The translations under genes and the position numbers were made by a program. A model generated the notes under the pieces. The model was given only the letters and a program-made list of their open reading frames with translations, searched no databases and had not been told where the DNA came from. From a virus (taxonomy: Duplodnaviria > Heunggongvirae > Uroviricota > Caudoviricetes), in IMG/VR virus record IMGVR_UViG_2654587792_000015: 8,026 bases of DNA; one strand, given 5' to 3'. Position 1 is the first letter of the stretch. Each line of letters begins with the position of its first letter. Below are positions 1 through 8,026 of this stretch, piece after piece.

Positions 1-95
1 CCGATAAACCGGGTCGGCGAACTGCTCCCCTGGCGCGTAGCACTGCCGACTGAATAACACATCCCCGTCAATACGGTTCTTGCTGCACGCTTACG

Positions 96-1571
96 TTGAT
101 CATGAATGGGCAGCATACCGAGTTTAATCGCCTTCTCGGGCTCGGTAATGAATTACTTCAGCAGCGACAGGGGCTGGTGAATGTACCGTTACGGCTACCA
201 CAGGCAACCCTGGATGATAAACAGCAGACTGCACTGAATAACAGCGAGCGCGAACTGGCTCTGTCCCGCCTGAAGGGGGAAGCCCGTGAGCGTGCCCGCT
301 TGGGTTATGCTGCGGATGATCTCGGCTTTGTGGGAGAGGCGTATCAGACAGCCAGACAGAATTATATCAATAACTCACTGGATGCCTGGCGAAATAACCA
401 GGCAAATAAACCCAAAGCGCATAAAAAGACCGAAGCGGAAAAAACAGAAGATATTTATAAACGGCTGATTAAACAGCAAAAAGAACAAATAGCACTGGCA
501 GGGCAGAATACTGAACTGGCTAAGATGAAATATCAGGTCAGTCAGGGCGAATTATCAACCCTGTCAGAAGCGCAGAAAAAAACGCTTTTGCAGAATGCAG
601 CACTCATCGACCAGAAAAAGATTCGTGAGCAGCTTGCTGCGTATGAAAGCAGCCTGGCGGACAGTAATGCCAGTACCCGGGCGTCTAACGACGCGCAGTT
701 ACTGGGATATGGTGAAGGCTCACGGATGCGTGAACGACTCCAGGAAATGTGGAGTATCCGGCATGAGTTTGAGCAGAAAAATAACGAGCTGCTGAGACAG
801 TATCAGGCCGGAGAAATTGAAGAAGCCCTGTGGAAACAGGAGAAAGAACTGAATAAAAAATATCTGGAAGAGCGTCTCAGCGATCAGCAGGATTATTATG
901 CAAAGGCCGATGCTTTACGTAATAACTGGAATGCAGGACTCCAGGAGGGGCTGACCAACTGGGCAGACAGTGCCACCGATTATGCTTCGCAGGCGGCAGA
1001 TGCTGTCGTTTCCACTATGGACGGACTGGTATCAAATATTTCCGATGCACTGGCCGGAAATGTTGTGGACTGGAGAAACTGGGGGAGTTCAATTCTCCAG
1101 GAAGTTTCAAAAATTCTGATGAATGCGGCCATTGTTAACGGACTGAAGTCACTCTCCGGTGCCGGAGGGTGGCTTGGTACGGTCGGCGGATGGATTTCGG
1201 GGGCGGTGGCAAACGCAAAAGGTGGTGTTTACACATCAGCAAATCTGAGTGCTTACAGTAACACTATTGTGGATACACCGACGTATTTTGCTTTTGCGAA
1301 AGGTGCCGGGCTGATGGGCGAGGCCGGGCCTGAAGCTATCATGCCACTGACACGGGCAGCGGACGGCTCTCTTGGGGTCAGAGCCATTGGCAATGTGAAT
1401 AGTGGCGGGGGGGTTGTTTATTCTCCCGTGTATCACATCAGCATTCAGAATCAAGGGAGCAATGGCGAGATAGATGCGCGCTCAGCCAGGGGACTGGTGG
1501 ATCTGATCGACAGCAGGGTTGTGTCAATTATGCAGTCATCGCGTCGGGATGGAGGATTGTACAGTGCCTGA
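96..1571 (+). CDS. H: Phage tail tape measure protein (lambda gpH-like), C-terminal ~490 codons only; probably a 5'-truncated remnant rather than a complete gene
   Basis: Open frame 96-1571 (TTG at 96, first ATG at 102), ending ...RRDGGLYSA then TGA at 1569-1571. The Gly-rich, hydrophobic C-terminal segment (NWNAGLQEGLTNWADSATDYASQ...ILMNAAIVNGL...) and the Q/E/K/R-rich coiled-coil-like region before it match the C-terminal architecture of lambdoid tape measure proteins, and the ORF sits immediately upstream of M-L-K-I-J. No Shine-Dalgarno motif precedes 96 or 102, and all three forward frames contain stops within nt 1-57 (frame 0 TGA 51-53, frame 1 TAA 55-57, frame 2 TAA 5-7 and TAG 38-40). 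Confidence 0.75.
   Translation: MIMNGQHTEFNRLLGLGNELLQQRQGLVNVPLRLPQATLDDKQQTALNNSERELALSRLKGEARERARLGYAADDLGFVGEAYQTARQNYINNSLDAWRNNQANKPKAHKKTEAEKTEDIYKRLIKQQKEQIALAGQNTELAKMKYQVSQGELSTLSEAQKKTLLQNAALIDQKKIREQLAAYESSLADSNASTRASNDAQLLGYGEGSRMRERLQEMWSIRHEFEQKNNELLRQYQAGEIEEALWKQEKELNKKYLEERLSDQQDYYAKADALRNNWNAGLQEGLTNWADSATDYASQAADAVVSTMDGLVSNISDALAGNVVDWRNWGSSILQEVSKILMNAAIVNGLKSLSGAGGWLGTVGGWISGAVANAKGGVYTSANLSAYSNTIVDTPTYFAFAKGAGLMGEAGPEAIMPLTRAADGSLGVRAIGNVNSGGGVVYSPVYHISIQNQGSNGEIDARSARGLVDLIDSRVVSIMQSSRRDGGLYSA
1549..1571 (+). promoter_or_regulatory. H/M translational-coupling junction: Shine-Dalgarno GGAGG plus overlapping stop and start
   Basis: GGAGG at 1551-1555, GTG 1564-1566, H stop TGA 1569-1571 (GTGCCTGA). 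Confidence 0.5.
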
Positions 1572-1905
1572 GCCTGAAGTTTTTAACTGGATCCCCCGTG
1601 AGGGGATGGAGACGACACGAAAGCCATCAGTTATTACGGTAAAGTTTGGTGACGGATATGAACAGCGACGGGCTGGTGGTCTGAATGCGGATCTGAAAAC
1701 GTTTAAACCGGTATTTCGTGTCACAGATGAATATTCCCGTGCCGCGCTGGACAGTTTTTTATCCCGTCATGCCGGGATTCGTGCTTTTTTGTGGCGTCCG
1801 CCAAAACACAACAGGACTGTCCGGGTTGTCTGCAGGGAGTGGAGCATTTCGGATAATGCCATGTATACCGATTTTAACTGTACCTTTGAAGAGGTCACTC
1901 ACTGA
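1564..1905 (+). CDS. M: Phage minor tail protein M (lambda gpM-like)
   Basis: Frame-1 ORF containing ...VKFGDGYEQRRAGGLNADLKT...FLWRPP..., which I recognise as gpM-like. Preferred start is GTG 1564, preceded by GGAGG at 1551-1555 (8-nt spacer) and overlapping the H stop (GTGCCTGA); an alternative in-frame ATG at 1549 has no Shine-Dalgarno motif. The stop TGA at 1903-1905 overlaps the L start ATG at 1905-1907. Confidence 0.85.
   Translation: MPEPEVFNWIPREGMETTRKPSVITVKFGDGYEQRRAGGLNADLKTFKPVFRVTDEYSRAALDSFLSRHAGIRAFLWRPPKHNRTVRVVCREWSISDNAMYTDFNCTFEEVTH
1672..1679 (+). other. Chi octamer 5'-GCTGGTGG-3' (RecBCD recombination hotspot motif) inside M
   Basis: Exact match GCTGGTGG at 1672-1679 on the + strand. 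A single occurrence is near chance expectation, so functional significance is uncertain. Confidence 0.4.
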
Positions 1906-2604
1906 TGCAGGATATACAGCAGGAAACACTCAATGAGTGCACTAAAACGGAGCAATCCGCGCAGCATCGTGCTCTGGGAAATCGACCTGACAGAGGTCGG
2001 CGGAGAACGTTATTTCTTCTGTAATGAGCAGAACGAAAAAGGTGAACCAGTCACCTGGCAGGGGCGACAGTATCAGCCCTATCCCATTCAGGGAAGCGGA
2101 TTTGAAATGAATGGCAAAGGCACCAGTACGCGCCCCACGCTGACGGTTTCTAACCTGTACGGTATGGTCACCGGGATGGCGGAAGACATGCAGAGTCTGG
2201 TCGGCGGAACGGTGGTCAGGCGTAAGGTTTACGCCCGTTTTCTGGATGCGGTGAACTTCGTCAACGGAAACAGTGACGCCGATCCGGAGCAGGAGGTGAT
2301 CAGCCGCTGGCGCATCGAGCAGTGCAGCGAACTGAGCGCGGTCAGTGCCTCCTTTGTACTGTCCACGCCGACGGAAACGGACGGCGCCGTTTTTCCGGGC
2401 CGCATCATGCTGGCCAACACCTGCACCTGGACCTATCGCGGTGACGAGTGCGGTTATCACGGTCCGGCGGTCGCGGATGAATATGACCAGCCGACGTCCG
2501 ATATCACGAAGGATAAATGCAGCAAATGCCTGAGCGGCTGTAAGTTCCGCAATAACGTCGGCAACTTTGGCGGCTTCCTTTCCATTAACAAACTTTCGCA
2601 GTAA
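1905..2604 (+). pseudogene. L: Phage minor tail protein L (lambda gpL-like), reading frame disrupted by an apparent 1-nt insertion near 1959-1962
   Basis: ATG 1905 (coupled to the M stop) opens frame 0: MQDIQQETLNECTKTEQSA..., which hits TAA at 2022-2024 after 39 codons. Homology continues in the +1 frame from 1963 (SIVLWEIDLTEVGGERYFFCNEQNEKGEPVTWQGRQYQPYPIQ...) to TAA at 2602-2604; the six-frame track shows only the +1 piece (1933-2604). Joining the two gives 19 + 213 = 232 aa, the length I recall for lambda gpL. Confidence 0.8.
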
Positions 2605-2609
2605 ATCCC

Positions 2610-3353
2610 ATGACACAGACAGAATCAGCGATTCTGGCGCACGCCCGGCGATGTGCGCCAGCGGAGTCGTGCGGCTTCGTGGTAAGAACGCCGGAGGGGG
2701 AAAGATATTTCCCCTGCGTGAATATCTCCGGTGAGCCGGAGGCGTATTTCCGTATGTCGCCGGAAGACTGGCTGCAGGCAGAAATGCAGGGTGAGATTGT
2801 GGCGCTGGTCCACAGCCACCCCGGTGGTCTGCCCTGGCTGAGTGAGGCCGACCGGCGGCTGCAGGTGCAGAGTGATTTGCCGTGGTGGCTGGTCTGCCGG
2901 GGGACGATTCATAAGTTCCGCTGTGTGCCGCATCTCACCGGGCGGCGCTTTGAGCACGGTGTGACGGACTGTTACACACTGTTCCGGGATGCTTATCATC
3001 TGGCGGGGATTGAGATGCCGGACTTTCATCGTGAGGATGACTGGTGGCGTAACGGCCAGAATCTCTATCTGGATAATCTGGAGGCGACGGGGCTGTATCA
3101 GGTGCCGTTGTCAGCGGCACAGCCGGGCGATGTGCTGCTGTGCTGTTTTGGTTCATCGGTGCCGAATCATGCCGCTATTTACTGCGGCGACGGCGAGCTG
3201 CTGCACCATATTCCTGAACAACTGAGCAAACGAGAGAGGTATACCGACAAATGGCAGCGACGCACACACTCCCTCTGGCGTCACCGGGCATGGCACGCAT
3301 CTGCCTTTACGGGGATTTGCAACGATTTGGCCGCCGCATCGACCTTCGTGTGA
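2610..3353 (+). CDS. K: Phage tail tip assembly protein K (lambda gpK-like), with an N-terminal MPN/JAMM-like motif and a C-terminal NlpC/P60-like region
   Basis: Uninterrupted 247-codon ORF starting 5 nt after the L stop. A JAMM-type motif H-x-H-x7-S-x2-D is present (HSHPGGLPWLSEAD, about nt 2811-2852), and candidate NlpC/P60 Cys and His lie in VTDCYTLF and PNHAAIY. The 3' end overlaps the I start by 103 nt in a different frame, as in lambda. Confidence 0.9.
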   Translation: MTQTESAILAHARRCAPAESCGFVVRTPEGERYFPCVNISGEPEAYFRMSPEDWLQAEMQGEIVALVHSHPGGLPWLSEADRRLQVQSDLPWWLVCRGTIHKFRCVPHLTGRRFEHGVTDCYTLFRDAYHLAGIEMPDFHREDDWWRNGQNLYLDNLEATGLYQVPLSAAQPGDVLLCCFGSSVPNHAAIYCGDGELLHHIPEQLSKRERYTDKWQRRTHSLWRHRAWHASAFTGICNDLAAASTFV

Positions 3354-3899
3354 AAACGGGGGCCGAAGCCATCCGGGCACTGGCCACACAGATCCCGGCG
3401 TTTCGTCAGAAACTGAACGAGGGCTGGTATCAGGTGCGCATTGCCGGGCGTGATGCAGGCGAAAACGAATTATCAGCCCGTCTTAATGAGCCGCTGAAAA
3501 ATGGTGCCGTGATCCACATCGTACCGCGTCTGGCGGGAGCAAAAAGTGGCGGTGTGTTTCAGGCGGTGCTGGGGGCGGCGCTGATTGCAGTGGCATGGTG
3601 GAACCCTGCAGGCTGGCTGGGAGCCGCGGCTGTATCGGGCATGTATGCGGCAGGGGCCAGTATGATCCTGGGCGGAGTGGCGCAGATGCTGGCACCGAAA
3701 GCCAGAACGCCCACGTACACACACAACAGATAACGGCAAACAGAACACCTATTTCTCCTCACTGGATAACATGGTTGCCCAGGGCAATGTTCTGCCTGTT
3801 CTGTACGGTGAAATGCGCGTGGGGTCACGGGTGGCTTCTCAGGAGATCAGCACGGCAGACGAAGGGGACGGTGGTCAGGTTGTGGTGATTGGTCGCTGA
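3251..3899 (+). pseudogene. I: Phage tail tip assembly protein I (lambda gpI-like), reading frame disrupted by an apparent 1-nt insertion near 3708-3713
   Basis: ATG 3251 (GAGAGAGG upstream, inside the K 3' end) opens frame 2: MAATHTLPLASPGMARICLYGDLQRFGRRIDLRVKTGAEAIRALATQ..., which terminates at TAA 3731-3733 (...KARTPTYTHNR). The conserved gpI-like C-terminus (...TTDNGKQNTYFSSLDNMVAQGNVLPVLYGEMRVGSRVASQEISTADEGDGGQVVVIGR) is in the +1 frame (frame 0) and ends at TGA 3897-3899, just before the J ribosome-binding site. The switch point is at or near the CCC run 3710-3712. Confidence 0.75.
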
Positions 3900-3917
3900 T
3901 GCAAAATGTTTTATGTG

Positions 3918-3937
3918 AAACCGCCTCAGGGCGGTTT
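3918..3937 (+). promoter_or_regulatory. Intergenic hairpin between I and J; possible weak terminator, attenuator or mRNA-stability element
   Basis: AAACCGCC (3918-3925), loop TCAG (3926-3929), GGCGGTTT (3930-3937), followed by TGTCGTTT. It lies between the I stop (3897-3899) and the J ribosome-binding site (3948-3951). Confidence 0.3.
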
Positions 3938-3959
3938 TGTCGTTTATGGAGCGTGAGGA

Positions 3960-6900
3960 ATGGGTAAAGGCAGCAGTAAGGGGCATACCCCGCGCGAAGC
4001 GAAGGACAACCTGAAGTCCACGCAGCTGCTGAGTGTGATCGATGCCATCAGCGAAGGGCCGATAGAAGGTCCGGTGGATGGATTAAAAAGCGTGCTGCTG
4101 AACAGTACGCCGGTGCTGGACACTGAGGAGAATACCAACATCTCCGGCGTCACGGTGGTGTTCCGGGCAGGTGAGCAGGAGCAGACACCGCCGGAGGGGT
4201 TTGAATCCTCCGGCTCCGAGACGGTGCTGGGTACGGAAGTGAAATATGACACGCCGATCACCCGGACCATCACGTCGGCAAACATCGACCGTCTGCGCTT
4301 TACCTTCGGTGTGCAGGCACTGGTGGAAACCACCTCAAAGGGGGACAGGAATCCGTCGGAAGTCCGCCTGCTGGTTCAGATACAGCGTAACGGTGGCTGG
4401 GTGACGGAAAAAGACATCACCATTAAGGGCAAAACCACCTCGCAGTATCTGGCCTCGGTGGTGGTGGATAACCTGCCGCCGCGCCCGTTTAATATCCGGA
4501 TGCGCAGGATGACGCCGGACAGCACCACAGACCAGCTGCAGAACAAAACGCTCTGGTCGTCATACACCGAAATCATCGATGTGAAACAGGGCTACCCGAA
4601 CACGGCACTGGTCGGCGTACAGGTGGACTCGGAGCAGTTCGGCAGCCAGCAGGTGAGCCGTAATTATCATCTGCGCGGACGCATTCTGCAGGTGCCGTCG
4701 AACTACAACCCGCAAAAACGGCACATACAGCGGTATCTGGGACGGAACGTTAAAACCGGCATACAGCAACAACCCGGCCTGGTGTCTGTGGGATATGCTG
4801 ACCCACCCGCGCTACGGCATGGGGAAACGTCTTGGTGCGGCGGATGTGGATAAATGGGCGCTGTATGTCATCGGCCAGTACTGCGACCAGTCGGTGCCGG
4901 ACGGCTTTGGCGGCACGGAGCCGCGCATCACCTGTAATGCGTACCTGACCACACAGCGCAAGGCGTGGGATGTGCTCAGTGATTTCTGCTCGGCGATGCG
5001 CTGTATGCCGGTATGGAACGGGCAGACGCTGACGTTCGTGCAGGACCGACCGTCGGATAAGGTGTGGACCTATAACCGCAGTAATGTGGTGATGCCGGAT
5101 GATGGCGCGCCGTTCCGCTACAGCTTCAGCGCCCTGAAAGACCGCCATAATGCCGTTGAGGTGAACTGGATTGACCCGAATAACGGCTGGGAGACGGCGA
5201 CAGAGCTTGTTGAAGATACGCAGGCCATTGCCCGTTACGGTCGTAACGTCACGAAGATGGATGCCTTTGGCTGTACCAGCCGGGGGCAGGCGCACCGCGC
5301 CGGGCTGTGGCTGATTAAAACAGAACTGCTGGAAACGCAGACCGTGGACTTCAGCGTGGGTGCAGAAGGGCTTCGCCATGTACCGGGCGATGTCATTGAA
5401 ATCTGTGATGATGACTATGCCGGTATCAGCACCGGCGGGCGCGTGCTGGCGGTGAACAGCCAGACCCGGACGCTGACGCTCGACCGTGAAATCACGCTGC
5501 CATCCTCCGGTACCACGCTGATAAGCCTGGTTGACGGAAGTGGCAATCCGGTCAGCGTGGAGGTTCAGTCCGTCACCGACGGCGTGAAGGTAAAAGTGAG
5601 CCGTGTTCCTGACGGTGTTGCTGAATACAGCGTGTGGGGGCTGAAGCTGCCGACGCTGCGCCAGCGCCTGTTCCGCTGCGTGAGTATCCGTGAGAACGAC
5701 GACGGCACGTATGCCATCACCGCCGTGCAGCATGTACCGGAAAAAGAAGCCATCGTGGATAACGGGGCGCACTTTGACGGCGACCAGAGCGGCACGGTGA
5801 ATGGTGTCACGCCGCCAGCGGTGCAGCACCTGACCGCAGAAGTCACCGCAGACAGTGGGGAATATCAGGTGCTGGCGCGCTGGGACACGCCGAAGGTGGT
5901 GAAGGGCGTGAGCTTCCTGCTTCGCCTGACCGTGGCAGCGGACGATGGCAGTGAGCGGCTGGTCAGCACGGCCAGGACGACGGAAACTACATACCGCTTC
6001 ACGCAACTGGCGCTGGGAAATTACAGGCTGACAGTCCGGGCGGTAAATGCGTGGGGACAGCAGGGCGATCCGGCATCGGTATCGTTCCGGATTGCCGCAC
6101 CGGCAGCACCGTCGCGGATTGAGCTGACGCCGGGCTATTTTCAGATAACCGCCACGCCGCATTTTGCGGTTTATGATCCGACGGTACAGTTTGAGTTCTG
6201 GTTCTCGGAAAAACGGATTGCTGATATCAGGCAGGTTGAAACCAGCGCGCGTTATCTTGGTACGGCGCTGTACTGGATAGCCGCCAGTATCAATATCAAA
6301 CCGGGCCATGATTATTATTTTTACGTTCGCAGTGTGAACACCGTTGGCAAATCGGCATTCGTGGAGGCTGTCGGTCGGGCGAGCGATGATGCGGAAGGTT
6401 ACCTGGATTTTTTCAAAGGAGAAATCGGGAAAACACATCTGGCCCAGGAGCTGTGGACGCAGATTGATAACGGTCAGCTTGCGCCGGACCTGGCTGAAAT
6501 CAGGACGTCCATTACGAATGTCAGCAATGAAATCACGCAGACCGTCAATAAAAAACTGGAAGACCAGAGTGCGGCAATCCAGCAGATACAGAAAGTTCAG
6601 GTTGATACAAATAATAACCTGAACAGCATGTGGGCCGTGAAACTGCAGCAGATGCAGGACGGACGCCTTTATATTGCGGGTATCGGAGCCGGTATTGAGA
6701 ATACGCCAGCAGGTATGCAGAGTCAGGTGCTTCTGGCTGCTGACCGGATTGCGATGATTAATCCTGCGAATGGCAACACAAAGCCGATGTTTGTTGGTCA
6801 GGGCGATCAGATATTCATGAACGAAGTGTTCCTGAAATACCTGACGGCTCCCACCATTACCAGCGGCGGTAATCCTCCGGCATTTTCCCTGACACCGGAC

Positions 6901-7440
6901 GGGCGGCTGACGGCGAAAAATGCCGATATCAGCGGTAACGTGAATGCGAACTCCGGGACGCTCAACAACGTCACGATTAACGAAAACTGTCGGGTTCTGG
7001 GAAAACTGTCCGCCAACCAGATTGAAGGCGATCTCGTTAAAACAGTGGGCAAAGCTTTCCCCCGGGACTCCCGTGCACCGGAGCGGTGGCCATCAGGGAC
7101 CATTACCGTCAGGGTTTATGACGATCAGCCGTTTGACCGGCAAATTGTTATTCCGGCGGTGGCATTCAGTGGCGCTAAGCATGAGAGAGAGCATACTGAT
7201 ATTTACTCCTCATGCCGTCTGATAGTGCGGAAAAACGGTGCTGAAATTTATAACCGTACCGCGCTGGATAATACGCTGATTTACAGTGGTGTTATTGATA
7301 TGCCTGCCGGTCACGGTCACATGACGCTGGAGTTTTCGGTGTCAGCATGGCTGGTAAATAACTGGTATCCCACAGCAAGTATCAGCGATTTGCTGGTTGT
7401 GGTGATGAAGAAAGCCACCGCAGGCATCAGTATCAGCTGA
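3960..7440 (+). pseudogene. J: Phage host-specificity / central tail fibre protein J (lambda gpJ-like), reading frame disrupted by an apparent 1-nt insertion at the A5 run 4714-4718
   Basis: ATG 3960 with GGAG at 3948-3951 (8-nt spacer). Frame 0 reads MGKGSSKGHTPREAKDNLKSTQLLSVIDAISEGPIEGPVDGLKSVLLNSTPVLD..., which I recognise as the gpJ N-terminus. After ...SNYNPQ (about 4715) frame 0 degenerates and stops at 4851-4853, while the gpJ-like sequence continues in the +1 frame from about 4720 ([39 protein letters not shown]...) uninterrupted to TGA 7438-7440. Removing one nucleotide in 4713-4719 yields a single ORF of about 1159 codons. Confidence 0.85.
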
Positions 7441-7507: not shown

Positions 7508-8026
7508 ATGCGTAAAGTTTGTGCAGCCATTTTGTCCGCAGCCATCTGTCTGTCCGTATCCGGTGCGCCTGCATGGGCGTCTGAACATCAGTCCACACTG
7601 AGCGCGGGGTATCTTCATGCCCGTACGAACGCTCCCGGCAGCGATAATCTGAACGGGATTAACGTGAAATACCGTTATGAGTTTACGGACGCGCTGGGGC
7701 TGATTACGTCCTTCAGTTATGCCAATGCTGAGGATGAGCAAAAAACGCACTACAGCGATACCCGCTGGCATGAAGATTCCGTGCGTAACCGCTGGTTCAG
7801 CGTGATGGCGGGGCCGTCTGTGCGCGTGAATGAATGGTTCAGCGCGTATGCGATGGTGGGTGTGGCTTACAGCCGTGTGTCGACTTTCTCCGGGGATTAT
7901 CTCCGCGTAACTGACAACAAGGGGAAAACGCACGATGTGCTGACCGGAAGTGATGACGGTCGCCACAGCAACACCTCTCTGGCGTGGGGAGCTGGCGTGC
8001 AGTTTAACCCGACCGAATCCGTGGCC
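7508..8026 (+). CDS. lom: Lom-like outer membrane protein (Ail/Lom/PagC/OmpX family), 5' part; the 3' end lies beyond the window
   Basis: ATG 7508 preceded by GAGAGG (7497-7502). The frame is open to the end of the window (173 codons): MRKVCAAILSAAICLSVSGAPAWA-SEHQ... The N-terminus is a typical signal peptide with an A-x-A cleavage site; GINVKYRYEF and the alternating aromatic/hydrophobic strands are characteristic of the Lom/Ail beta-barrel family. It occupies the position immediately downstream of J, as lom does in lambda. It is absent from the ORF track because no stop occurs within the window. Confidence 0.8.
   Translation, partial: MRKVCAAILSAAICLSVSGAPAWASEHQSTLSAGYLHARTNAPGSDNLNGINVKYRYEFTDALGLITSFSYANAEDEQKTHYSDTRWHEDSVRNRWFSVMAGPSVRVNEWFSAYAMVGVAYSRVSTFSGDYLRVTDNKGKTHDVLTGSDDGRHSNTSLAWGAGVQFNPTESVA

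What the first reader, a model, noticed from the sequence alone, without database searches (positions are those of the whole stretch)
3251..3899. Tail assembly protein I gene is split by a +1 frame disruption near a CCC run (3710-3712)
The N-terminal 153 codons (frame 2, from ATG 3251) and the conserved C-terminal 62 codons (frame 0, ending TGA 3897-3899) are both gpI-like but lie in different frames. The frame-2 reading terminates at 3731-3733 with the non-conserved tail TYTHNR, whereas frame 0 from 3711 reads PRTHTTDNGKQNTYFSSLDNMVAQGNVLPVLYGEMRVGSR... Frame 0 upstream of about 3700 is junk (TGA at 3663-3665), which places the switch at roughly 3700-3715. The listed frame-1 ORF 3595-3888 is not the real C-terminus.
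Basis: partly seen in the sequence, partly recalled or inferred. Interest (0 to 1): 0.5.

Follow-up and report, generated by a model that had tools for sequence, protein, structure and literature searches.

The report
Frameshifted lambda-type tail gene I
The phage tail gene I in this draft E. coli contig really is broken by one extra base, but the break is most likely an assembly artefact (or else decay of a dead prophage), so it is ordinary.

Summary
ORF 3251-3733 encodes the N-terminal 153-154 residues of a lambda-type tail tip protein gpI. The conserved C-terminal 62 codons (3711-3899) lie in the next frame. Removing one base at 3710-3713 restores a 215-codon gene that is 97% identical to intact E. 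coli homologues.

The extra base is the A at 3713, just after the CCC run. It sits in the 22-nt linker that encodes the gpI 'plug'. That linker is 22 nt in 129 of 130 relatives and 23 nt here.

The window is the whole 8,026-bp draft contig JHTM01000182.1. It starts with an IS66-family end cut into tape-measure gene H. It carries two more uncompensated +1 insertions, in L (~1961-1966) and in J (~4720-4724).

All three insertions lie in local zones where the contig is a fine-grained blend of two known allele classes. In each zone the contig keeps the 'extra' base of both classes. The K gene between the zones is a normal haplotype.

No complete E. coli genome, phage record, viral contig or metagenome contig searched carries the I junction. 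Neighbouring accessions came from an assembly pipeline that merged Velvet and Edena contigs with Minimus.

- Merge/consensus artefact: about 0.6.
- Real pseudogene in a decaying prophage: about 0.33.
- Programmed frameshift: about 0.02.

The parts
1..94 (+). Right end of an IS66-family (ISEc22-like) insertion sequence. It abuts the middle of tape-measure gene H.
   Evidence: 98.9% identical to the end of the annotated ISEc22-family element in E. coli MLI106K4 (L137 5137-5231). The tail-module homology starts at base 95. No complete E. coli genome has this IS-H junction.
96..1571 (+). 3' part of tape-measure gene H, truncated by the IS.
   Evidence: The ORF list and the gene call on the identical contig L008 carry the Pfam family Tape_meas_lam_C. 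Homologous to the annotated tape-measure CDSs.
1904..2604 (+). Gene L (minor tail protein) with an uncompensated +1 insertion at about 1961-1966. The native start MQDIQQETLNECTKTEQSA runs into stops. The rest is read from a fortuitous ATG at 1933 (223 aa instead of 232).
   Evidence: 92 of 94 grouped relative alignments make the window +1 here.
2610..3353 (+). Gene K (JAB/MPN + NlpC/P60 peptidase), intact. It overlaps the start of I.
   Evidence: The 247-aa product is found identical on 8 public contigs. This region is a normal haplotype in the blend test.
3251..3712 (+). Gene I, N-terminal part in frame 2. It holds the ubiquitin-like Lambda_tail_I domain, the two hydrophobic helices and KARTP.
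   Evidence: Pfam PF06805 matches residues 14-97, E 7e-25. Aligns to lambda gpI 1-162.
3713..3713 (+). The extra base (A) that shifts the frame by +1.
   Evidence: It is the only gap in alignments to relatives with the B-type linker. The linker is 23 nt here against 22 nt in 129 of 130 relatives. In grouped alignments 128 of 129 make the window +1 here.
3714..3899 (+). Gene I, C-terminal part in frame 0. It holds the rest of the plug and the beta-strands that thread through gpJ. Stop TGA at 3897-3899.
   Evidence: Matches PDB 9e7m and 8iyk gpI chains and PHROGs 4554 and 32. Role from PMC11101478 and PMC12617516.
3731..3733 (+). Premature TAA that ends the frame-2 reading after the junk tail TYTHNR.
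3960..7440 (+). Gene J (central tail fibre) with an uncompensated +1 insertion at about 4720-4724. It is split into ORFs 3960-4853 (297 aa) and 4795-7440 (881 aa).
   Evidence: 107 of 107 grouped alignments +1. The same junction occurs in IMG/VR contigs L142 and L143.
7508..8026 (+). 5' part of lom; it runs off the end of the contig.
   Evidence: Gene call on L008. Homologous to the annotated Ail/Lom CDSs.

Best explanation
As written, gene I is an ordinary lambda-type gpI gene interrupted by one extra base (A3713). The extra base is most likely not in the bacterium's DNA. It looks like a consensus artefact made when contigs from two different co-resident lambdoid prophages were merged.

Proposed mechanism (inferred):
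- Two allele classes of the I linker differ by a short multi-base patch. An aligner renders that patch as two offsetting 1-nt gaps: CCC-CGTACACAG... against CCCACG-GCAGCA...
- A two-sequence consensus that prefers a base to a gap keeps both extra bases. The result is a 23-nt linker and a +1 shift.
- The same thing happened in L and in J.

Shown: the insertion, its position, its absence from relatives, and the local two-allele blending.
Inferred: that the blending happened in software rather than in the cell.

In either case the encoded 160-aa product would lack most of the plug and the whole C-terminal beta-strand anchor of gpI, so it could not take its place in a tail tip.
For: 1. The window is the whole 8,026-bp draft contig JHTM01000182.1. 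It is bounded by an IS end, so it lies in repeat-rich territory.

2. There are three uncompensated +1 insertions in about 2.8 kb and no net deletions. Almost all relatives lack each one.

3. At each site the relatives form two allele classes that align with a pair of offsetting 1-nt gaps. The window has the inserted base of both.
- I: B-type AACTCCC-CGTACACAGACAACG, A-type GACGCCCACG-GCAGCAAGTACA, window AACGCCCACGTACACACACAACA.
- L: GCGC-TGATCGTG, GC-CAGCGTGGTG, window GCGCAGCATCGTG.
- J: CGCGGCA-ATAC, AACG-CACATAC, window AACGGCACATAC.

4. Blend test on the I gene.
- The window differs at 22-23 columns from its nearest of 97 unique relatives.
- One B-type plus one A-type sequence explain all but 3 columns, but only with at least 23 switches.
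- The 88 relatives that are equally well explained need at most 13 switches (median for all relatives 2).

5. Positions 1950-2300 are an outlier in the same test. So are 4500-5050 once L142 and L143 are left out. K (2650-3350), which lies between the zones, is 1-2 differences from a known haplotype with 1 switch.

6. Only 4 private substitutions were found in 6,142 well-covered positions, against 3 private insertions. From my own knowledge, spontaneous indels are about ten-fold rarer than substitutions.

7. The I junction is absent from everything searched:
- 5,426 complete E. coli genomes, where the best match over 100 nt is 96%;
- 50,697 phage records;
- IMG/VR viral contigs;
- GTDB representative genomes;
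- JGI metagenomes.
The truncated product exists on no other contig in the gene-position index.

8. Accessions in the same block (JHTC, JHTD, JHTI, JHTK) are GEMS EPEC genomes sequenced on HiSeq2000. Their Velvet and Edena contigs were merged with Minimus, an overlap-consensus step (PMC4433268 supplements).
Against: - JHTM itself is not listed in that paper. The pipeline is inferred only from neighbouring accession numbers.
- No reads were available, so the artefact is not demonstrated.
- The prophage is genuinely damaged, because an IS sits inside H. Real pseudogenes would therefore not be surprising.
- The J junction recurs in two contigs of another assembly (IMG genome 2648501437). That could mean a real, heritable allele.
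- One base of the I linker (C at 3722) and one at 3523 are explained by neither parent class.
- Patchy heteroduplex repair in vivo could in principle also give a fine mosaic.
Confidence: 0.62

Rival explanations
1. The insertion is real. Gene I is a pseudogene in a decaying lambdoid prophage remnant that has also lost H to an IS66-family insertion and carries frameshifts in L and J. The blends would come from recombination or gene conversion between co-resident prophages, or the +1 would be a spontaneous insertion in the CCCC run of a B-type allele.
For: - The IS end abuts mid-H inside the contig.
- E. coli O111:H2 strain 12A, which carries a near-identical prophage remnant, has IS66-, IS679- and IS2-riddled prophage remnants with a truncated K.
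- The J frameshift junction is shared by L142 (same 297 + 881 aa split, 98.97% identity, no gaps) and by L143, both from another assembly.
- Other database sequences also have frame problems in this linker. L032 is 2 nt short, and PHROG 28576 contains a misframed C-terminus.
- Illumina assemblies rarely contain non-homopolymer indel errors (my own knowledge).
Against: - There are three insertions and no net deletions, each exactly where two allele classes have offsetting gaps, and each time with the base kept.
- The salt-and-pepper two-parent pattern is unmatched among about 90 natural relatives.
- There are too few private substitutions for a locus old enough to have gained three indels.
- None of the three junctions occurs in any of 5,426 complete genomes.
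Confidence: 0.33
2. Programmed or tolerated +1 ribosomal frameshifting at CCC-A. The tRNA-Pro would slip from CCC to CCA, reading ...KARTP-RTHTTDNGKQ... and producing full-length gpI from the split gene.
For: A +1 slip at CCC_A would give exactly the homologous protein (sequence). CCC-N sites are known to be shift-prone for tRNA-Pro (my own knowledge).
Against: - It is not conserved: 129 of 130 relatives are in frame at this site.
- There is no Shine-Dalgarno-like stimulator upstream (sequence).
- The downstream RNA folds no better than shuffled sequence (z = -0.27).
- L and J would each need their own independent recoding events.
Confidence: 0.02
3. gpI is made and functions as two separate polypeptides: the 160-aa N-terminal product, plus a C-terminal peptide started at ATG 3771.
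For: A 42-codon ORF starts at ATG 3771 in the correct frame.
Against: - There is no ribosome-binding site before 3771 (sequence).
- The peptide would lack the plug residues.
- All relatives encode one chain.
- In the lambda structure a single gpI chain runs from the helices through the plug into the beta-strands.
Confidence: 0.01

Closest known systems
Bacteriophage lambda tail tip protein gpI (223 aa; PDB 8IYK, 8IYL, 8K35, 8XCG, 9E7M)
   Same: - Same domain order: N-terminal ubiquitin-like Lambda_tail_I domain, two hydrophobic helices, plug, C-terminal beta-strands.
- The repaired 215-aa protein aligns over its full length (E 3.5e-108).
- Same gene order H-M-L-K-I-J-lom, with the K/I overlap.
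   Different: - The window's copy is 8 residues shorter in the hydrophobic region, as in many E. coli prophage alleles.
- It is interrupted after the residue equivalent to lambda P162, inside the plug (lambda 159-175).
Intact 215-aa 'tail assembly protein' of E. coli prophages and lambdoid phages (e.g. WP_032338103.1 in strain Ecol_AZ147; phages mEp460, vB_EcoS-640R1, cdtI)
   Same: 96-97% nucleotide identity over the whole gene, with the same neighbours. 97% protein identity after repair.
   Different: Their gene is 648 nt in one frame. The window has 649 nt and a linker (PRTHTT after repair) seen in none of them.
Frameshifted J genes on IMG/VR contigs IMGVR_UViG_2648501437_000007 and _000009 (L142, L143)
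   Same: The identical +1 junction CAAAAACGGCACATACAGCGG in J. L142 has the same 297 + 881 aa split.
   Different: They do not carry the window's I allele: L143 has an intact 213-aa I, and L142 has no I gene. L143 has a further +1 at window position 5535.

Membership tests
Lambda gpI tail tip / tail assembly protein I | N-terminal Lambda_tail_I (ubiquitin-like) domain, Pfam PF06805 | tested here: met
   Residues 14-97 of the frame-2 ORF, E 7.4e-25, 87.6 bits against a cut-off of 23.8.
Lambda gpI tail tip / tail assembly protein I | Central hydrophobic helices (H1, H2) followed by the KARTP/plug segment | tested here: met
   Aligns to lambda gpI 101-162 with two short gaps. Helix roles are taken from PMC11101478.
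Lambda gpI tail tip / tail assembly protein I | Conserved C-terminal segment (TTDNGKQNTYFSSLDNMVAQGNVLPVLYGEMRVGSR...) that threads through gpJ | tested here: met
   Present at 3711-3899, but in a different frame from the N-terminal part. Matches the PDB 9e7m and 8iyk gpI chains and PHROGs 4554 and 32.
Lambda gpI tail tip / tail assembly protein I | Position between K (JAB + NlpC/P60) and J in an H-M-L-K-I-J-lom module | tested here: met
   ORF list, annotated relatives, and Pfam calls on the identical contig.
Lambda gpI tail tip / tail assembly protein I | One uninterrupted reading frame of about 213-223 codons | tested here: not met
   The frame changes at 3713 and a premature TAA follows at 3731. 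As written it is a disrupted copy, not a functional member.
Programmed +1 ribosomal frameshift site | The frame change is conserved in homologues | tested here: not met
   129 of 130 relatives have an in-frame 22-nt linker. All top E. coli and phage hits are 648 nt.
Programmed +1 ribosomal frameshift site | Stimulatory elements (upstream SD-like sequence, slow A-site codon or stop, downstream structure) | tested here: not met
   No SD-like motif upstream (sequence). The A-site codon is ACG, not a stop. Downstream fold z-score is -0.27.
Assembly / contig-merge consensus artefact | The sequence is a column-wise blend of two real alleles, with bases preferred over gaps | tested here: met
   The two-parent test puts the window as an outlier in exactly the three zones that hold the insertions. 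The kept-both-bases pattern is seen at all three sites.
Assembly / contig-merge consensus artefact | No raw read supports the junction; two read populations are present instead | not testable with these tools
   Reads for GCA_001506145.1 could not be accessed.
Assembly / contig-merge consensus artefact | The assembly was produced by a pipeline with an overlap-consensus merge step | tested here: inconclusive
   Neighbouring accessions (JHTC, JHTD, JHTI, JHTK) were assembled with Velvet and Edena and merged with Minimus. JHTM itself is not listed there.

The most novel reading that the evidence does not exclude
The three frameshifted alleles are real and were made in the cell. They would be uncompensated intermediates of 'compensated frameshift' evolution, kept alive in defective prophages where selection is relaxed. 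Such alleles could later be rescued by a nearby compensating indel and return to functional phages as new short peptide patches.

The J site fits this path. The rare functional allele CGC-ACA-TAC (RTY) equals the window's CGG-CAC-ATA-C minus one G. The common allele CGG-CAA-TAC (RQY) equals it minus one C.
Probability: 0.08. Interest if true: 0.35.

Novelty: not a real feature. Interest (0 to 1): 0.08.

Why it matters
It matters little for biology. gpI is a well-studied, structurally solved tail tip protein, and a broken copy in a draft contig is either an assembly error or routine prophage decay.

The practical value is as a warning. Short, repeat-bounded prophage contigs from merged assemblies can be chimeras of several co-resident prophages. 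They can carry false frameshifts exactly where alleles differ by complex patches. Pseudogene counts, prophage 'intactness' calls and protein databases built on them inherit these errors.

If the insertions were real, the contig would simply document a prophage remnant inactivated at H, L, I and J.

Tried and rejected
- Programmed +1 frameshifting was rejected. It is not conserved, and the downstream RNA has no structure beyond shuffles.
- Dinucleotide (AC)n slippage as the origin was not supported. A pattern scan allowing (AC)3-5 and an optional A found no such allele in the GTDB representative genomes or in IMG/VR.
- Exact look-ups of the truncated products (160 aa, 127 aa, 297 aa, 881 aa) found only this contig. 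This test is strict and so only weakly informative.
- P0059, listed with a longest contig of 8026, turned out to be an unrelated contig of the same length.
- A search with J's out-of-frame tail found only other, unrelated frameshifted J fragments.
- Searching papers for JHTM accessions found nothing. The project was reached only through neighbouring accessions.
- A whole-contig column-wise mix of two copies was rejected. Exact runs of 100-1,200 nt shared with single relatives show the blending is local.
- The IS-H junction is in no complete E. coli genome or IMG/VR contig, so no orthologous reference prophage could be found.

Full report
**What the window is**

The window is identical to the complete 8,026-bp contig JHTM01000182.1 of the draft assembly GCA_001506145.1. 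It carries a lambda-type tail module:
- the 3' part of tape-measure gene H (96-1571);
- M (1549-1905);
- L (about 1904-2604);
- K (2610-3353);
- I (3251-3899);
- J (3960-7440);
- the start of lom (7508 to the end).

Bases 1-94 are not tail module. They are 98.9% identical to the right end of an annotated IS66-family ISEc22-like element and abut the middle of H. No complete E. coli genome or IMG/VR contig has this IS-H junction.

**Check of the observation**

- ATG 3251 opens a 160-codon ORF ending ...APKARTPTYTHNR, with TAA at 3731-3733.
- The next frame has TGA at 3663-3665. It is then open to TGA 3897-3899 and reads PRTHTTDNGKQNTYFSS...VVVIGR from 3711.
- The CCC run is at 3710-3712.
- The N-terminal ORF contains Pfam Lambda_tail_I (residues 14-97, E 7e-25).
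- The 62 C-terminal residues hit tail PHROGs 4554 and 32 (E 5e-33 and 6e-21).
- Deleting A3713, or equivalently one C, gives a 648-nt, 215-codon ORF. It aligns over its whole length with lambda gpI in PDB 8IYK (E 3.5e-108). It is 97% identical to intact 215-aa E. coli proteins.
- Every close relative has 648 nt where the window has 649.

The third-frame ORF 3595-3888 is not the C-terminus.

**Where exactly the break is, and what it would do**

The break lies in the short variable linker between ...LAPKAR and DNGKQ...

I extracted this linker from 130 relatives: IMG/VR contigs, phages, E. coli genomes and metagenome contigs. It is 22 nt in 129 of them and 20 nt in one (L032). It is 23 nt in the window.

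There are two main allele classes:
- B-type: AACTCCCCGTACACAGACAACG (PRTQTT);
- A-type: GACGCCCACGGCAGCAAGTACA (PTAAST).

The window reads AACGCCCACGTACACACACAACA. That is B-type plus an A after CCC, with A-type states at two further positions and one private base.

In lambda numbering the break follows P162. It therefore falls inside the gpI 'plug' (residues 159-175). In the closed tail tip the plug seals the tube lumen. It precedes the beta-strands that thread through the hub domains of gpJ. A gpI trimer also holds the C-terminus of the tape-measure protein (PMC11101478; PMC12617516).

A 160-aa product would keep the ubiquitin-like domain and the two hydrophobic helices. It would lose most of the plug and the whole anchor. 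As written, the gene should not be able to supply a working tail tip protein (inference).

**The I defect is not alone**

Against essentially all relatives the window has three uncompensated +1 insertions:
- about 1961-1966 in L (92 of 94 grouped alignments);
- 3713 in I (128 of 129);
- about 4720-4724 in J (107 of 107).

L loses its native N-terminus, and the called 223-aa ORF starts at a fortuitous ATG. J is split into 297-aa and 881-aa ORFs. K and M are intact.

**The common signature**

At each site the relatives fall into two allele classes. The classes differ by a short multi-base patch that aligns as a pair of offsetting 1-nt gaps. The window contains the 'inserted' base of both classes.

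| Gene | Allele class 1 | Allele class 2 | Window |
|---|---|---|---|
| I | CCC-CGTACACAG | CCCACG-GCAGCA | CCCACGTACACAC |
| L | GCGC-TGATCGTG | GC-CAGCGTGGTG | GCGCAGCATCGTG |
| J | CGCGGCA-ATAC | AACG-CACATAC | AACGGCACATAC |

I then asked how well each sequence in a region is explained by the best pair of other sequences, and how many switches between the two that needs.

| Region | Distance from window to nearest relative | Window columns explained by neither parent | Switches the window needs | Most switches among equally well explained relatives |
|---|---|---|---|---|
| 1950-2300 (L site) | 15 | 2 | 15 | 11 (48 relatives) |
| 2650-3350 (K, two windows) | 1-2 | 0 | 1 | normal haplotype |
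| 3354-3899 (I) | 22-23 | 3 | at least 23 | 13 (88 relatives; median for all 2) |
| 4500-5050 (J site), L142 and L143 left out | 8 | 0 | 10 | 9 (81 relatives) |

For I, the best pair is one B-type sequence (L045) plus one A-type sequence (L121).

Elsewhere the contig follows single known haplotypes for 100-1,200 nt. The frameshifts therefore sit in three local zones where two alleles are blended base by base. In each zone a base has won over a gap.

Only 4 private substitutions were found in 6,142 well-covered positions, against 3 private insertions. Independent spontaneous mutation does not give that ratio. My own knowledge here is that indels are roughly ten-fold rarer than substitutions in E. 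coli.

**How widespread the junctions are**

The I junction was not found in:
- 5,426 complete E. coli genomes (best 96% over 100 nt);
- 50,697 phage records;
- IMG/VR viral contigs;
- GTDB representative genomes;
- JGI metagenomes.

The truncated products occur on no other contig of the gene-position index. The L junction is likewise absent from IMG/VR and from the complete genomes (best 96.2%).

The J junction is the exception. It is absent from complete genomes (best 96.9%), phages, metagenomes and GTDB representatives. But it occurs in two IMG/VR contigs of one other genome, IMG 2648501437:
- L142 has the same 297 + 881 aa split.
- L143 has one further +1 at window position 5535.

L142 is 99.3% identical to a prophage remnant of E. 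coli O111:H2 strain 12A, which has an intact J. All 40 differences plus the indel are confined to one stretch (about window 4500-5400 and the downstream end; the J-region ones fall at 4619-5280), and there L142 alternates between the states of that strain's two J copies.

**Likely source of the blending**

No paper lists JHTM itself. Its accession block does belong to the GEMS EPEC genomes: JHR*-JHT*, including JHTC, JHTD, JHTI and JHTK. [quoted passage not shown]

Minimus merges overlapping sequences of imperfect identity and then calls a consensus. Suppose the two inputs come from different co-resident prophages a few percent apart. The overlap then becomes a two-sequence consensus: a fine mosaic that is too long wherever the alignment has offsetting gaps. 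That is the pattern seen.

The link from JHTM to this pipeline is an inference from neighbouring accession numbers.

**Verdict on mechanism**

- **Merge/consensus artefact (about 0.62).** The contig would be a chain of pieces from several prophages.
- **Real pseudogene in an IS-disrupted, decaying prophage (about 0.33).** This is supported by the IS in H, by the IS-riddled remnants in strain 12A, and by the shared J junction.
- **Programmed +1 frameshifting at CCC-A (about 0.02).** It would give the right protein, but it is not conserved and has no stimulators. L and J would need the same.
- **A two-piece gpI (about 0.01).** It has no support.

Reads were not available, so the first two cannot be separated here. 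A k-mer count of the three junctions in the raw reads would decide.

**Comparison with what is known, and novelty**

The gene is a plain member of the lambda gpI family in every feature except an intact frame (see the membership rows). Nothing here is new biology. The record shows either an assembly error or routine prophage decay.

The most novel reading not excluded is that these are real, uncompensated intermediates of compensated-frameshift evolution held in defective prophages. The J alleles RQY, RTY and the window's form are related in exactly that way. I give that about 8%.

Noticed in passing
window 3960-7440 (break at about 4720-4724); L142 1211-1234; L143 4574-4597: Gene J is also split by a +1 insertion (ORFs 3960-4853 and 4795-7440). 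The identical junction CAAAAACGGCACATACAGCGG occurs in two IMG/VR contigs of another genome (IMG 2648501437) but in no complete E. coli genome. L143 has a second +1 at window position 5535.
   Followed up: yes
window 1904-2604 (break at about 1961-1966): Gene L has a +1 insertion 20 codons into the gene. The called 223-aa ORF starts at a fortuitous ATG (1933) in the shifted frame. Upstream the contig is the 'X' allele type and downstream the 'Y' type.
   Followed up: yes
window 1-94: The contig starts with the right end of an IS66-family (ISEc22-like) element inserted in the middle of tape-measure gene H. This junction is in no complete E. coli genome and no IMG/VR contig.
   Followed up: partly
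window 3714-3888 (third frame); L032 10979-11035: The downstream half of the junk ORF 3595-3888 hits PHROG 28576 (E 3e-19). This family of K-I fusion-like calls therefore seems to contain a member whose I 3' end is read in the wrong frame. IMG/VR contig L032 has a 20-nt linker (2 nt short) at the same place. The I linker is a recurrent site of frame problems in databases.
   Followed up: partly
proteins P0002, P0006, P0007, P0037, P0043, P0046: Several NCBI assemblies encode 335-377-aa proteins that fuse K (JAB/NlpC-P60) sequence in frame to a full I protein. In P0002, for example, K sequence runs straight into MAATHTLPL... I did not determine whether these are real deletions or fusions, or miscalls.
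   Followed up: no
window 3915-3945: By eye, a GC-rich hairpin followed by a T-rich run lies in the 60-nt I-J spacer (AAACCGCCTCAGGGCGGTTTTGTCGTTT). L142 has a similar one. The terminator scan did not list it.
   Followed up: no
window 2603 and about 3900: The window is 1 nt longer than 31 relatives in the L-K spacer (CGCAGTAAATCC against CGCAGT-AATCC). It is also 1 nt longer than 10 relatives just after the I stop. Both differences are intergenic and harmless.
   Followed up: no
L144 and L145 (E. coli O111:H2 strain 12A, NZ_CP077479.1): This complete genome carries two lambdoid tail modules whose J genes provide both 'parent' states seen blended in L142 and in the window. One module is a remnant cut by IS679, ISCro1 and IS2. 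This suggests the window's strain has a similar, EPEC-like set of prophages.
   Followed up: partly
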